Part shown: positions 14,601-20,600 of the stretch, piece by piece
Layout of the letters: each line of letters opens with the position of its first letter
How positions within the stretch are numbered: the first letter of the stretch is position 1
Source of the DNA: Lingula anatina
Taxonomy: Eukaryota; Animalia; Brachiopoda
Direction: 5' to 3'
Length of the DNA: 64,000 nucleotides
NCBI GenBank assembly: GCA_051362555.1
Contig: CM120641.1
Coordinates: 2,976,001-3,040,000, forward strand
Position numbers and translations under genes: made by a program
The notes under the pieces: model-generated
The model's database searches: none
Told to the model about the DNA's origin: nothing
Seen by the model: the letters and a program-made list of their open reading frames with translations, nothing else

Positions 14601-17600
14601 TTTGGTTGCTTAATGCAGGTGGTAGGCATTTGCACCCCCCCCCCCCCCCCCCCAAAAAAAAAAATCATAAATCAAATTTAAAAAAATTAAAAGAAGAAAG
14701 AAAAGAAGAAACATCCCTTTCTCATGGTGTAAATCGAAGAAATCATTTTGTTATGATGCCTGCTATTTTGCTGCAGTTGTGATCTGGTGTAATTTGTAGG
14801 TGCTGCATTTGCCAGACAAAGATTTGATTATCCTACAGAAACAAGATTTCTCATCCTTTTGTCATTGTTTATCTTGTAAATCTTGAGCAAAAGATCCATT
14901 ATTGTGCATCAACATGTAGTATAGGTAGGGGGAAGGGGGGGGGGGATGAAGGAAGTGTAAGGTTGTCTGGGGGGGGGGGGTAGATAGATGGGTTATACAG
15001 CATAGCACCTGTATACAACTGGGTGGAAATGTTAGAAATGGTAAATACATTTGTGTTAATTTCATATTTCAGGCAAGTGTAAGAGAGATGCAAGAGAGGT
15101 GGCTATTAAAGTTATTGATAAACTGCGTTTCCCTACCAAGCAGGAGGCCCAGCTAAAGAATGAAGTGTCCATCTTGCAGGTAAGTTATATTTTAGTATTA
15201 ACCTTGGTAGTTTGACCTTTTTTTGTAAAATTTGAACAGAGCACTGTTGTTGATTAAATGATTGAAACAATTGTTTCTAATTTCAGCCTCTCAGTTCTTC
15301 AAATCAGTAACATGCTTCAAAATAATGTTGTATTTCAGGATGCAATTATGTGCCATAAATGTTAACCCCAAATTCTTTCAAATAATAAAAACTTTGTCTG
15401 TAGCCACATGTGCATATTGAAGTATACTGAAGACAGATTGTAGACAGTTTTGTGGGTATGTTAATCATTAATTAGAGATTTTACTGAGTGTTAGCACTCT
15501 TTGAAATTTTGTATTCTTTTTTAGAACCTTCACCATCCTGGTGTAGTGAATCTAGAACAGATGTATGAGACACCAGATAAGGTTGGTAGAACTTTTTAAA
15601 ATAGATTGACTCTTATTTTGCAGTCTTTTCTACTTGTGTAGGCAAAAATAACAGTAGATTTTCGTATTAGCCCCAGGGCACGTTCTTGCACAGTAGATTT
15701 TAAGCACATGCCCGACATATTCTACTTTGGTTACAAAAATGCTAATTTTTTTCCCCTCAAATTATAAAATTTTTTTTGCAGGATTTTGCTTTCATTATTT
15801 TTCATCAGTTTGGCAAAAAGAAATGCTATCCTTAAATTAGGACATAGTTGTACAGTGAAGCTCTCCAAAAATCAGCAGTAAAAGTTCTTAGTCCAGTACA
15901 CAGAGACCGTGTTTCCACATGTATATTTATCGTCACTTTATTCATATTTGTAACAGTGACATTCAGAACATTCAGAAGCCAGCTCCTAACTGAGAAGACA
16001 ACTATTTACATGTACCAACCAAATATTTAGTCCTAATTACAGAATTTAATGTTATGTATGTTGTCTTAACTTCCTTGCAGATCTATGTGGTGATGGAAAA
16101 ATTGAAGGGAGACATGTTGGAGATGATATTGTCCAGTCCGAAGGGCCGCCTCAGCGAAAGGGTCACCAAATTTCTCATATCACAGGTAATTTGTTGGATG
16201 GCCTGGAGATAAATGGAGGGGGGCAGTATCATTGGTTTATAATTTGTTGATAAAAAATGTTGTCTGAGATAATTGAAATGATGTGCTATTTCCTTGGACA
16301 TTGTTTCAGGGCATGCAAGAAAAAATGGCATTTGGTTCTTTTCCTGTCTGCATAGGAATGTAGCTCATGTAAGGAAATTAGAAAAAGAAATACTGTAGGT
16401 TGGAGAAGTCCCTCAAGGGGTTAAGGCAGTCACCTCTTTTTTTTTCTTTTTGCACAAAGTCACAACAGCATTTACCCAAAAAAATAAAAAAACATGTTAC
16501 TTGATAGTGATCAGGTTTCATATTGCAAAACTTTTAAATTTTGTAATTTTATTGAGAGTTTTTTAAGGTCACCAATATGTCAGTTTAGATGTGTGTTTCC
16601 CAAAGCTGCAGCCAGCAGCAGTTTCTGCAGACTTAAAACAGCACTGCCACCTTTTGCTTTTTTCAAAATTAAATTCTTTATAAGGCTTCAGGTGAAATCT
16701 ACAGGCTCTGTCATGGTTGTCTGCCTCCTTGTATTCTTGCCTGCAAACCACACACACAGAGTGTTCCAGGGTTGCCGGAGTATCTGAGAGAGATCCATGC
16801 CTTGTTTTCAATCTGCCGTGGTTTGTTGAGCCAGCATAGCTGACATTTACAATTCTGGGGGTGGCATAGCTCGCTAAGCGAGGTGCACTGGTACTTTTGT
16901 GGAGAGTGTTAAGTCTGAAAGAGCTGGCAGGGAGCTCGGGAAGCTTGTCCCCAAGGGAGTCATTGCTTTGGCTGCTAGCACTGCTTTCTCTGCTTGGCGG
17001 GTTAAACCGTACGTCTATGAACTTGTGTTTCATGTGCTTTATACTGTTTTTCAGCATCTCCTTATCCAGTTCAGCGCCTTGTAGTTTTATTTGCAAGGAG
17101 TCTTTTTCCTGTCTCAGGGTTTTTAGTTTTCCCTTCAGACTTGAGATCCTCTCCTGGAGACTTTGTTTCTCTATGCTGTTTTCTTCCATCATTCTCCTGA
17201 TGCTGCTATGCAGGCTGTACTGCTCATCCAATGGGAAGCCCAAGATTTGCTGGCACATTTCTTCTTCTTCCCTGAGGTTGTCCACCGTCTGGTGGGCACT
17301 GGTCAGTTGTGAGTCCAGTGTTTCTATTCTCTTGGTAAGAAAATCAATGTTAATCTGAAGGAGAAGGACATTTTTATCTCCCTCCGACATGTTGTTGTTC
17401 ATTTCCAAAAGGTCAAGGTCATCACCAGCCTTTCCACGTATGTTTTCCAATTGTTCGTTGATTTCTACAATCTTTGAATCGCGAGTTTGGATTTGACCCT
17501 TGAGATTTTCTTGCATTTTTTCAAATTGACCTTCTTGCATTTGGAGTTTTTCTTTCAGAAGCTTTATTTGGGTTTCTTGTTCCTCTCTGGTGTGGTTAAA

Positions 17601-20600
17601 GTCAGTCACTTCAACGCTCTCTGGTCTTTTGACTGTGGAAGCCAATTCCAGTCTCTCAGTTAGTTCCCCAATTTCTTCATCTTTCTCGGCAATTGCTATT
17701 TGCTGGGCTGTGACCCGCTGCTGTAGTTGAGATATCTTCACTTGGTTGTTCTTGTTGACATCTAAACTAGTGTTAAGTTTCTTGTTGAGCTCCTGCACAT
17801 CTTTCTGGAGTGTCTGGATTTCTACAGTCTGCCAGGCACACTGTTCTTCTTGAGACTCCTTCAAGTTTCTCTCTTCCTGAAGCTCCTCCTTTAGCACAAG
17901 ATTGTTGCTGAGGACTTTCCTTTCCTCCTGACTGAGCAGTTTATGTAACCTTTGAAGATGTTTGGTGATGAACTCGTCCACTTTTCTATGGCTGTGATTT
18001 GTCGCACCTGAAAGATAGGAGTGTTAGAATTTTTTTAAATATTCAAATGGAAAACTTTTCAGATAAAGTGACAAAAAAATTTAAGTTGCAAAAATAAGTA
18101 TTCCTAAATTCTCTTTTGTTACAAGAAATGAGTTATTACTGAGTTATTTATTTTCATTATCATTCCAACTAATACTCCCCAATGTTGTGTATTTAGCTCA
18201 AAAGCAAACAAATCGTGTGAGGCATTTGCTGTAGGCATATTGTTCCTTCAATTTATCAGACTACTCTGCTTTAGTTCATTGAATGGTATGACACTGCAGT
18301 TTTTCTGTCTAATAGACTTCGTTTCTCTGTGTAGAAAAGTCAAATAGAAAAGTTTGTTTAGGGGAAAAAGACTGCTTGGGTCGATTGAAATAATACAGTT
18401 TTGTCCAGGCCCTTTTCTGTACTTGCAAAAATCTTTTAAGGAAACCTTCAGACATGATTACACATACATTAGTATTATGAGATTTCTGCCTTTTCTTTTC
18501 TTTTTACTCCTTTACAATATATGCACACGAACAGAGCAAGTTAACAGCATTTAAAAGGGGTGAAAAAGAAGGTGAAACAGAGAAGGGTTGAAGTCTCACC
18601 GTTTTCGGCCTGTGCCATTGCCTCCCTCAGTTTATTTGCCAGATCTTCATGTCCTGTTGTTTCTAATACCTGTATGAAGTTTGGTAGAGCTTGGGGGCCT
18701 CTACTTTTTAATAGGCGCAGCATCTGGAATACTTGTTCCCCTTTTGTGGAAGATGCCTTAAAGAAAAAAGATTTAAAGTAAAATAATTTTCTGATTTACT
18801 TGTGGAAAATTGAATATAATCTGTGATATTTTTACTATAAAAAAAAAACCACCGCACTATTTATGAAGCATTGTTTTGGAATGATTTTAAATTAAAAGTA
18901 AATCATAATATTTTAAACACAAATTCTATTGTATGCAGTTTGAAAAAAAACTGGAAGAAATTCTAGATAAAGTCCAATTTTTAGCAGAAAAAAAAGATCA
19001 AATGAATGGGAATGATAAGCTTATCTTAGAGTTAAGATAATATTTTCCAGAAAAAGAAAAAAAAATCATTGAACATTTCAGTATTTTACCTGAATTTGTT
19101 CCACCATTTCATCTGTAAACACCTCTTTTTCCAGTAACCCTGCATAAAACTCTGCCAGTGGAATAATACCTTGTTGTAGAAGTGTCAAGTGTTTTGTTAT
19201 TATTTTCTGATGTCTCTTCTCCATGTTTATGATATCTTCAAACTTTGTCGCAGAATATTCTCAGCTTAGATACTGGAGTAGTTGTTATTTCTTCTGATTG
19301 CTGAGAAGTTCAAAAAGTTTATAACTCTATTTTGATGGCCTCAGCTAAATCAAATGTTGAAGCACGCCAAACTTGGTAATCCTCTGAGGCTTTATGATAT
19401 CCTAGTGAAGTGAAAATGTTGATTTTTTTCACGTGTTTTCCATATTGTGTCGTATCTCCAGTAACCAAGGAAGATCATTTAGTAGAAGCAATCTCCTTGT
19501 CCCAGACCGATACCTTAAACTAATGACAAATATCTGGACGATAAGATGTAGAGTTGTCCCTTATAGGAGAAGCAGCTCGTGTAAAGTCCCCCTCTGCAGG
19601 GGTATTAATTACATAGTCTATCACTGCACCTGTCAATACAGGGCTTTGGGTATCTTCTGTTGGAGACCCAGGTGATAAGATTGCCTCTTGGACGTTGACT
19701 TACTTCTGAAAAACTGGTATTTGATCACTTGTACTTTTTACAACTCATGAAGAAGTTTGTTTAAGAATGCTCAGAAGCTTTACCAATGGTTTTATCGATT
19801 CATGTGGACTGGAGCATTTGCTCAGGTATTCAGAGTCCATCCATAGGGTTATAGTTTGCTTTGTTTACTTACCTATTGTACACTGAATGGGGAGCTCGGC
19901 AGTATTGATATCACATAACTTGTATGACGTCAGCAGTTTGCTCTGTGATTATAATGGATGGGAATTTCCAGATTGGGCAATAGCTCTAGTTTTAATTATT
20001 TTGTTAAAAAAAATGCTGTATAAGGAATAATTTATTTGTGTGTGTGTGTGTGTAGGCATGTTTGTATTTTAAGGGTCCATACTCTTTTTATAGTTGATAA
20101 TTTAGCTACTTGAATGAAACCATTTTCATTCTATTTTCACCTTTTAGTTTGAGCATAGTTACTGTGAGTTCAGAAAATTTGATAAAATGAAATTCACAAT
20201 ACAAAAGAAATAAACAATAGATTAAAAAAAGTATCACAGTTTTATTCATTTGAAAGACTAGTCTGTTATATAATTTGATGTAAATAAAGAGTCTGCTTAT
20301 GAATAAAGTAATTATTATGCTTCTATTCCAGATCCTAGTTGCCTTAAAACACCTACATTCCAAGTCCATAGTCCACTGTGACCTGAAACCTGAGAATGTG
20401 CTCCTGTCTTCAGAGACACCATTCCCACAGGTAGGATAATGTTTTAAGACATGCTCTCACCAGGTTTAACTTGAGAGAGAAAGAGAGAGAGAAGAATAAG
20501 AAGAAGAAGAAGAGCTTGAGAGAGAGAGAGAGAGAGAGAGAGAGAGAGAGAGAGAGGAGGTTGAGAGAGAGAGAGATTTACTTAAAAAGACAGACACCCC

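What the first reader, a model, noticed from the sequence alone, without database searches (positions are those of the whole stretch)
16569..19224. Antisense nested gene with an unusual CARD / coiled-coil / CHORD-like zinc-finger architecture inside the PKD kinase region
Seen: a complete three-exon, 576-codon gene on the minus strand within the 16186-20331 PKD intron. Exons 1-2 make a CARD (MEKRHQKII..., RGPQA...F..VL..TGHEDLA), then about 300 aa of coiled coil, a Ser-rich linker, and a tail CxxC-x9-N-x4-CxxH-x13-WxCC-x8-GC-x2-GxH. Known: CARD plus coiled coil plus Ser-rich linker is the layout of CARD9/CARMA scaffolds that signal to NF-kB and are switched by PKC-family phosphorylation; the tail resembles CHORD and Btk-motif zinc modules; PKD is linked to NF-kB activation. 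Inference: a possibly undescribed invertebrate immune or apoptosis adaptor housed inside, and perhaps regulated with, a kinase. I know no named family with this domain combination.
Basis: partly seen in the sequence, partly recalled or inferred. Interest (0 to 1): 0.85.

Follow-up and report, generated by a model that had tools for sequence, protein, structure and literature searches.

The report
Death-domain scaffold hidden inside kinase gene
An intact gene lying backwards inside an intron of a lamp shell's protein kinase D gene encodes a death-domain (CARD) protein with a long predicted coiled coil and a predicted two-zinc tail; the same protein design exists in an annelid worm and likely works as a phosphorylation-gated signalling scaffold, but no link to the host kinase was shown.

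Summary
The gene is real. Three minus-strand exons give 576 aa with GT-AG introns and a poly(A) signal, inside a PKD intron confirmed by 25 junction reads. The organism is Lingula-like (98% to RefSeq XP_013409868, a truncated model named 'interaptin'). An Owenia (annelid) protein is colinear end to end (33.5% identity, E 8e-80), so CARD + coiled coil + Ser linker + zinc tail is a conserved, apparently unnamed family. It is not CARD9/CARMA by sequence: the CARD profile hits caspase-9 and RAIDD, and no CARD9/11/BCL10 chain. The tail is a single, compact CHORD-like module without the Hsp90-binding residues. A linker site L-x-K-S-x-S-x-P is kept in 3 of 3 CARD-bearing members and matches the HDAC4/5 sites used by PKD and SIKs for 14-3-3 docking. 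Against a tie to PKD: no sense-strand reads of the nested gene in 4 runs that express PKD, and 0 of 26 other animal loci with the same intron hold it. Best reading: a dimeric, phospho-gated CARD adaptor of lophotrochozoans; partners unknown; nesting probably incidental.

The parts
19090..19224 (-). Exon 1 (aa 1-45), first half of the CARD
   Evidence: ATG and GT donor; 58% identical to Owenia P0003 1-45, 61% to P0015
18600..18756 (-). Exon 2 (aa 46-97), second half of the CARD
   Evidence: Pfam CARD 21.2 bits, cut-off 23.9; best PDB match caspase-9 CARD, E 4e-5
16569..18007 (-). Exon 3 (aa 98-576 and stop): coiled coil, linker, zinc tail
   Evidence: 484-codon open frame; 30% to P0015, E 1e-50; RefSeq XP_013409868 covers aa 254-576 with 5 substitutions and no stop
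17004..18007 (-). Predicted coiled coil, aa 98-432
   Evidence: AlphaFold2: four long helices, pLDDT mostly 80-92; homology to P0015 is not compositional (score 388, shuffles 79 +/- 11, reversed 90); the orthologue's residues 119-214 are predicted as a parallel in-register dimer
16761..17003 (-). Ser/Thr-rich, predicted disordered linker, aa 433-513
   Evidence: 29% S+T in aa 433-510; pLDDT under 50
16875..16904 (-). Conserved L-x-K-S-x-S(471)-x-P site, predicted basophilic-kinase and 14-3-3 site
   Evidence: Once per protein in 3 of 4 family members, absent in P0004; shuffle probability 0.003-0.007 per linker; L466, K468, S469, S471 and P473 invariant in the three CARD-bearing members
16593..16754 (-). 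Single compact CHORD-like module, C516-C519-C533-H536-C553-C554-C564-H569, predicted to bind two zinc ions
   Evidence: Eight ligands invariant in 11 of 11 aligned rows; profile hits CHORDC1 2yrt (E 1.6e-8) and RAR1 2xcm (E 6e-7); Pfam CHORD 22.3 and BTK 21.4 bits, both under cut-off
16548..16553 (-). AATAAA poly(A) signal
16186..20331 (+). Host PKD intron inside the kinase domain (phase 0)
   Evidence: 25 junction reads in 4 runs; same position in 26 of 35 other PKD loci that hold both exons
16081..16185 (+). PKD kinase exon before the intron
20332..20430 (+). PKD catalytic-loop exon after the intron
   Evidence: Pfam Pkinase 36.7 bits; reads
19925..19932 (.). Perfect CRE palindrome, 52 nt before a consensus minus-strand donor at 19872; possible promoter or non-coding first exon (untested lead)
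   Evidence: 2 copies in the window against 0.33 expected, 4 of 100 shuffles reach 2; donor and candidate acceptor

Best explanation
This is an intact antisense nested gene of a small brachiopod-annelid family whose product likely acts as a dimeric CARD scaffold, predicted to be switched by phosphorylation of one conserved linker serine and 14-3-3 docking. Shown: the gene model, the host intron, the four-part layout and its conservation in Owenia, the linker motif, and the eight zinc ligands. Predicted: a parallel coiled-coil dimer that puts two CARDs at one end and two zinc modules at the other. Inferred: a kinase of the PKD/CaMK/AMPK-related group phosphorylates S471; 14-3-3 then clamps the two linkers and holds or relocates the dimer; release lets the CARDs cluster and recruit another CARD protein, most plausibly a CARD caspase (caspase-Y) or CRADD rather than Bcl10. 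The zinc tail would be an optional targeting module, since one Owenia paralogue lacks it, and would not bind Hsp90 the way RAR1 does. The position inside PKD is probably a lineage-restricted lodging, not a regulatory unit.
For: Orthologue P0015 (Owenia CAH1792143.1, 605 aa) aligns 1-571/1-602 at 33.5%, E 8e-80; identity is 54% in the CARD, 29% coiled coil, 30% linker, 41% tail. The CARD is the best-kept part, as expected for a binding surface. Pfam CARD passes the cut-off in P0015 (27.8) and P0003 (30.8). Homodimer model of P0015 1-215: score 0.49, best of 3 controls 0.12, runs agree in at least 84% of contacts, pLDDT at least 82, contacts i-to-i over 119-214. That mark was reached by 21 of 30 solved homodimers and 0 of 23 monomers in microbes, and in eukaryotes by 17 of 29 (animals 7 of 16) and 0 of 30; the pass may reflect likeness to solved coiled coils. 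The linker site matches HDAC4 S246 / HDAC5 S259 and the AMPK-family consensus LxB(S/T)xSxxxL, and SxP is a 14-3-3 consensus (PMC8057676, passages with Table 2); these HDAC sites are PKD sites that bind 14-3-3 (PMC7838639, passages). CARD profile: caspase-9 E 8e-6, RAIDD E 0.013. Lingula and annelids lack APAF-1 but keep CRADD and caspase-Y, with six caspase-Y in Lingula (PMC11463336, passages). CARD9/11 give a precedent for CARD-coiled-coil autoinhibition (PMC6624267, abstract and passages).
Against: No partner was identified or tested. No spliced or sense-strand read in 44.5 million records from 4 runs, so expression is not shown; tissues are unknown and PKD itself had only 2-8 junction reads per run. 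The linker motif is missing in the more distant homologue P0004, and the three carriers come from only two species, so they amount to about two independent observations; the strict pattern was defined after seeing the alignment (looser LxBxxSxP: 0.03-0.06 per linker). The caspase-9 match may be a generic CARD match: P0015 alone gives only E 1.1 and P0003 alone prefers RAIDD (E 0.021). Caspase-9 R52 and R56 align to G and F here (their role in Apaf-1 binding is recalled). The tail model was poor (pLDDT 52) and fold searches found nothing significant. No mollusc or other homologue was found, which is odd for a core pathway component.
Confidence: 0.42

Rival explanations
1. A structural or germline coiled-coil protein (for example at the centrosome, cilium or in sperm) that uses its CARD only to self-assemble, with no role in death or immune signalling.
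For: Silent in 4 runs, which fits a narrow tissue or stage; about 60% of the chain is coiled coil; weak sub-threshold Pfam matches to Cep57 and MAD-type coils; a CRE lies upstream, and CRE-driven spermatid genes are recalled from mammals.
Against: The weak coil matches are non-specific. The CARD is the most conserved region, and a conserved 14-3-3-type site suits a regulated signalling protein.
Confidence: 0.24
2. A divergent CARD9/CARMA-type scaffold that nucleates Bcl10-paracaspase filaments and signals to NF-kB.
For: Same order CARD, coiled coil, Ser-rich linker; predicted parallel dimer as in CARD9; annelids and molluscs have CARD-CC and Bcl10 (PMC5978004, section 5).
Against: No CARD9, CARD11 or BCL10 chain among 17 PDB hits to E 10, nor, although CARD9 structures 6E26, 6N2M and 6N2P exist. 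Staal et al. found invertebrate CARD-CC by BLAST and HMMER on 'highly conserved' CARDs, so a true member should be detectable. Their sequence list was not visible in the one supplement held.
Confidence: 0.11
3. A dedicated PKD substrate kept inside the PKD gene for joint or reciprocal regulation.
For: S471 has Leu at -5 and a basic residue at -3, as in the PKD sites of class IIa HDACs; the gene sits inside the kinase-coding region.
Against: The same motif fits SIK and other AMPK-related kinases. PKD is expressed where the nested gene is not. 0 of 49 other PKD loci hold the family; in the 26 with this intron it is 50-1478 nt, shorter than the 1731-nt coding sequence. Nesting in Owenia could not be checked.
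Confidence: 0.12
4. A RAR1-like co-chaperone adaptor that links Hsp90/SGT1 to CARD-bearing NLR sensors.
For: The best solved relatives of the tail are RAR1 and CHORDC1; Atlas TM 0.70-0.74 to CHORD clusters.
Against: RAR1's Phe187-His188-Asp189 loop (His188 invariant in CHORDs) and the Phe204/Phe207/Met208 patch bind Hsp90 (PMC2935968, passages). They are absent here and in P0015, and the segment that carries the patch is 9 residues instead of 16. Single domain, no CS domain.
Confidence: 0.06
5. A recently silenced gene that still has an open frame.
For: No sense reads; RefSeq has only a partial model.
Against: The frame is open in the window and over aa 254-576 of the RefSeq allele; splice sites, poly(A) signal and all eight zinc ligands are intact.
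Confidence: 0.05

Closest known systems
CARD9 / CARMA (CARD10, 11, 14) CARD-coiled-coil scaffolds
   Same: N-terminal CARD, long coiled coil with predicted parallel dimer, Ser-rich linker after the coil
   Different: CARD sequence is not CARD9/11-like; no PDZ-SH3-GUK; a CHORD-like tail instead; Bcl10 binding unknown
CHORD domains of RAR1, CHORDC1 and melusin; single CHORDs of Rex3/REXO1
   Same: Eight Cys/His ligands in the same order; N-x4-C-x2-H and W-x-C-C signatures; single copies are known in Rex3/REXO1 (PMC12129344, passages)
   Different: Spacing 2-13-2-16-0-9-4 against 4-13-2-14-0-16-4 in a canonical CHORD; no Hsp90-binding residues; no tandem pair, no CS domain
Btk-type zinc motif (BTK, ITK)
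   Same: The C-terminal lobe (H, CC, C) scores 21.4 bits on Pfam BTK
   Different: Under cut-off; part of a larger two-site module; not next to a PH domain; ITK structure only E 0.5
Caspase-9 and RAIDD/CRADD CARDs
   Same: Best solved sequence matches
   Different: No caspase or death domain in the protein; caspase-9 R52 and R56 not kept
Class IIa HDAC 14-3-3 sites (HDAC4 S246, HDAC5 S259)
   Same: L-x-K-(S/T)-x-S-x-P with a hydrophobic residue at +4
   Different: A motif match only; no other homology; phosphorylation untested
Owenia fusiformis CAH1792143.1 and CAH1792893.1; Lingula XP_013409868.1 'interaptin'
   Same: Orthologue (full layout), tailless paralogue, and a truncated model of this gene
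   Different: All uncharacterised; no paper in the library cites any of six accessions

Membership tests
CARD9/CARMA CARD-CC | N-terminal CARD directly followed by a long coiled coil and a Ser-rich region | tested here: met
CARD9/CARMA CARD-CC | CARD sequence related to CARD9/CARD11 | tested here: not met
   0 of 17 PDB hits to E 10 are CARD9, CARD11 or BCL10; same
CARD9/CARMA CARD-CC | Parallel coiled-coil homodimer | tested here: inconclusive
   Model support only, on the Owenia orthologue: 0.49 against best control 0.12
CARD9/CARMA CARD-CC | PDZ-SH3-GUK tail (CARMA) or no folded tail (CARD9) | tested here: not met
   Zinc module instead; no MAGUK Pfam hit
CARD9/CARMA CARD-CC | Nucleates Bcl10 filaments and activates paracaspase | not testable with these tools
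   needs bench work
CHORD proteins (RAR1/CHORDC1/melusin) | Eight zinc ligands forming two C3H sites | tested here: met
   C516, C519, C533, H569 and H536, C553, C554, C564 by analogy with RAR1; zinc binding itself untested
CHORD proteins (RAR1/CHORDC1/melusin) | Pfam CHORD above cut-off and canonical spacing | tested here: not met
   22.3 bits against 24.6; spacing differs at three of six gaps
CHORD proteins (RAR1/CHORDC1/melusin) | Hsp90-binding Phe-His-Asp loop and Phe/Phe/Met patch | tested here: not met
CHORD proteins (RAR1/CHORDC1/melusin) | Tandem CHORDs, with a CS domain in animals | tested here: not met
   single module, no CS hit
CHORD proteins (RAR1/CHORDC1/melusin) | CHORD fold | tested here: inconclusive
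   Own model pLDDT 52, no significant fold match; Atlas model TM 0.70-0.74 to CHORD clusters but 0.84-0.86 to unnamed clusters
Btk-motif proteins | Btk motif above cut-off next to a PH domain | tested here: not met
   21.4 bits against 24; no PH domain in the protein
CARD caspases | Caspase catalytic domain | tested here: not met
   none in Pfam scans
PKD/SIK substrates with 14-3-3 docking | L-x-basic-(S/T)-x-S-x-P site | tested here: met
   3 of 4 members; reference sites
PKD/SIK substrates with 14-3-3 docking | Phosphorylated by PKD and bound by 14-3-3 | not testable with these tools
   needs bench work
Conserved host-nested gene pair | Same gene in the same intron in other animals | tested here: not met
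   0 of 49 PKD loci; 26 with the intron, 9 without, 14 too short to show the next exon; Owenia not testable

The most novel reading that the evidence does not exclude
An APAF-1-independent activation platform for CARD caspases in brachiopods and annelids: a dimeric CARD-coiled-coil-CHORD scaffold gated by PKD phosphorylation and 14-3-3, encoded inside the gene of its own kinase.
Probability: 0.08. Interest if true: 0.85.

Novelty: new variant of a known kind. Interest (0 to 1): 0.5.

Why it matters
How CARD caspases are switched on in animals that lost APAF-1 is open; the survey read here offers only CRADD, by prediction. This family adds a second kind of CARD-coiled-coil scaffold, unrelated in its CARD to CARD9/CARMA, with one conserved serine that can be tested directly. 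It also puts a compact, Hsp90-independent CHORD-like module, otherwise seen here in unnamed proteins (some with LysM), on an animal death-fold protein. It corrects a database model that lacks the CARD and is named 'interaptin'. The nesting alone is ordinary unless Owenia or another phylum shares it.

Tried and rejected
No own genome is held, so Lingula paralogues and its true CARD9-like gene could not be sought. The run index listed no RNA holder; this is not evidence either way. Reads were laid for 4 of the 9 listed runs, 6-30% of each; the other 5 were not seen. Word-based searches with exon 3 and with the tail found only the RefSeq fragment; both were limited to 262-837 aa, and longer or shorter proteins were not searched that way. 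Atlas feature search with exon 3 gave only generic coiled coils, best 0.86. A metagenome scan with P0004 found nothing. AlphaFold2 of the tail with 11 rows was too poor for fold search: best Foldseek row CHORD 2yrt at E 6.9, no VIA match at Z 2. The CARD was not folded alone. The 50-aa PKD piece found no PDB match. Motif scans for RHIM, pLxIS, TRAF6, LIR and caspase sites were empty; four loose TRAF2-type matches lie in the coil and were dismissed. Literature: no paper held all of CARD domain + coiled-coil + CHORD + invertebrate; 'CHORD-like' hits were Notch ligand papers by title; Owenia + CARD gave 1 listing, not read; Btk-type zinc finger + CHORD gave 2 listings; six accessions gave 0; an LxRxxS search gave 0. 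Kaur and Subramanian 2018 on CHORD/Btk fingers was seen only as a title in a reference list and is not held; it may already list this module or layout. Earlier scan notes held nothing on this gene. Rejected: chance frame, transposon or viral origin (no such domain, spliced, annelid orthologue), alternative PKD exon (opposite strand), caspase, canonical CHORD co-chaperone.

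
Full report
Observation. Minus-strand exons 19224-19090, 18756-18600 and 18007-16569 give 576 aa with canonical splice sites and AATAAA just past the stop. The 484-codon frame of exon 3 exceeds all 300 shuffles of the intron (maximum 201). The host on the plus strand is protein kinase D: an intronless PKD frame from a fetched locus maps as 17 segments over C1a, C1b, PH and kinase, 5636-25252. 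RNA reads skip exactly 16186-20331 in 4 of 4 runs.

Organism and existing annotation. Exon 3 is 98% identical to Lingula anatina XP_013409868.1, a 323-aa model named 'interaptin'. That model starts at Met254, so it lacks the CARD; it differs at 5 of 323 positions, with no stop. The window is therefore a Lingula-like brachiopod; no whole genome was available.

Family. phmmer of exon 3 over 1.84 billion representatives gave 12 hits at E 0.001 or better: the RefSeq fragment, Owenia P0003, the unnamed P0004, and nine proteins matching only the tail. A profile search added Owenia P0015. P0015 has the whole layout and is colinear with the spliced model (33.5%, E 8e-80); identity is 50 of 92 in the CARD, 97 of 335 in the coil, 24 of 81 in the linker and 24 of 59 in the tail. 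The coil match is far above shuffled and reversed controls. P0003 is a 57%-identical paralogue that lacks the tail; the two records list the same longest-contig length but their accessions are 750 apart. P0004 has coil, linker and tail but no CARD (E 1e-18); it begins at a position inside exon 3, so it may be a partial call (inference). The annelid proteins confirm the start codon and the exon 1/2 junction. No mollusc or other named homologue was found.

CARD. Pfam CARD passes the cut-off in both Owenia proteins; exon 2 alone scores 21.2. A profile finds caspase-9 (E 8e-6) and RAIDD (E 0.013) and no CARD9, CARD11 or BCL10 among 17 hits to E 10, though CARD9 structures are deposited. The caspase-9 match is modest and may be generic. 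So the protein is built like CARD9/CARMA but fails the sequence test for membership.

Coiled coil. AlphaFold2 gives four long helices over aa 100-427 and disorder after them. Two copies of P0015 1-215 are predicted as a parallel in-register dimer over 119-214: score 0.49, best control 0.12, at least 84% contact agreement, pLDDT at least 82. The calibration is small (animals 7 of 16 true dimers passed, 0 of 30 eukaryotic monomers), and the pass may come from likeness to solved coils. It supports, and does not show, a CARD9-like dimer geometry.

Linker. There is no strict LxRxxS. But L-x-K-S-x-S-x-P occurs once, at the aligned place, in the Lingula protein (S471), P0015 (S479) and P0003 (S473), each with a hydrophobic residue at +4; it is absent from P0004. 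Shuffle probability is 0.003-0.007 per linker, or 0.03-0.06 for a looser pattern. It matches HDAC4 S246 and HDAC5 S259 and the AMPK-family consensus (PMC8057676, passages); those HDAC sites are PKD sites that recruit 14-3-3 (PMC7838639, passages). The motif points to regulation by a basophilic kinase but does not single out PKD. A second R-H-x-S element is also invariant.

Tail. Eight Cys/His residues are invariant in 11 rows and map onto RAR1's two zinc sites (PMC2935968, passages). A profile hits CHORDC1 (E 1.6e-8) and RAR1 (E 6e-7) far better than the ITK Btk motif (E 0.57). Spacing is C-x2-C-x13-C-x2-H-x10..24-CC-x9-C-x4-H in 10 of 10 sequences, against x4 and x16 in a canonical CHORD. The Hsp90-contacting loop and patch are missing. 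Single CHORDs are known in Rex3/REXO1 (PMC12129344, passages). The same compact module occurs in unnamed proteins, three of them with LysM, and in unnamed Atlas clusters: a mobile module, not unique to this gene. My own fold of it was unreliable.

Relation to PKD. Two tests went against a link. First, in 44.5 million records from four runs PKD is spliced in all, while the nested gene has no listed junction and no read in its own direction. In the two runs that look stranded (X1, X4) the minus-strand column is zero throughout; the few X1 reads inside the intron run in PKD's direction; X7 and X9 have no depth from 16250 to 20299. This bounds it at about 0.14-0.18 reads per kb per million records per run. 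Tissues are unknown and 5 listed runs were not seen, so this shows restriction, not silence. Second, of 49 PKD loci from metagenome contigs, 35 hold both flanking exons: 26 have the same GT-AG intron, 50-1478 nt long, and 9 have none; 14 are too short. None of the 49 matches the family by tblastn or by CARD and tail profiles. The intron is old; its tenant is not general. Nesting in Owenia remains untested and is the key gap.

Mechanism. Shown: gene, layout, conservation, motif, ligands. Predicted: parallel dimer, two-zinc tail. Inferred: phosphorylation of S471 and 14-3-3 docking gate CARD clustering, and the recruited partner is a CARD caspase or CRADD. The last step rests on the CARD's closest matches and on the report that brachiopods and annelids lack APAF-1 but keep CRADD and caspase-Y (PMC11463336, passages). 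In the sea anemone CARD-CC, deleting the C-terminal part did not activate it (PMC5978004, section 10), so linker control cannot be assumed from vertebrates. I give this reading 0.42; rivals are a structural or germline coil (0.24), a dedicated PKD partner (0.12), a divergent CBM scaffold (0.11), an Hsp90 adaptor (0.06) and a silenced gene (0.05).

Novelty. No paper in the searched library describes this layout or cites the accessions. Subscription papers are mostly missing; Kaur and Subramanian 2018 could not be read, and the sequence list of Staal et al. was not visible in the supplement held; either could bear on this. All parts are known kinds; their combination and the family appear unnamed. 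Verdict: new variant of a known kind, interest 0.5.

Noticed in passing
window 19925-19932 and 19872-19301 (minus): Perfect CRE 52 nt before a consensus donor, with a plausible acceptor 76 nt before the ATG: possible non-coding first exon under CREB-type control, or an intronic element of PKD.
   Followed up: partly
P0005, P0008, P0009 (unnamed, about 260 aa): The same compact CHORD-like module joined to a C-terminal LysM domain; P0006, P0007 and P0010 carry it at the N-terminus with no other Pfam domain.
   Followed up: partly
P0003 (Owenia CAH1792893.1): Paralogue that ends just where the zinc tail would start: a natural tailless form or an incomplete model.
   Followed up: no
L005, L016, L025, L027, L035, L041, L042, L043, L046: PKD loci without this intron; several have frames of 500-940 codons and may be transcripts or intron-poor genes.
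   Followed up: no
L039 4124-6469 (minus): 782-codon low-complexity, Lys/Glu-rich frame downstream of and opposite to PKD kinase exons; no match to this family.
   Followed up: partly
window 17541-17713: Two X1 reads join these places with 7 extra letters, in PKD's direction; probably an artefact.
   Followed up: no
window 1-5645: Degenerate multi-copy duplications (80-93% alike) that run up to the first mapped PKD C1 exon.
   Followed up: no
window 45109-46770 and 47220-48811: An 845-nt direct duplication at 95%, a 49-nt array at 46713-46937, and a 146-nt tandem array.
   Followed up: no
window 35982-36389 (minus): Exon of a class I/II aminotransferase (Pfam 48.1 bits); resembles serine palmitoyltransferase 2 by recall.
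   Followed up: no
window 58951-59307 (plus): Frame with an asparaginase-like motif (recalled); no Pfam hit at E 0.05.
   Followed up: no
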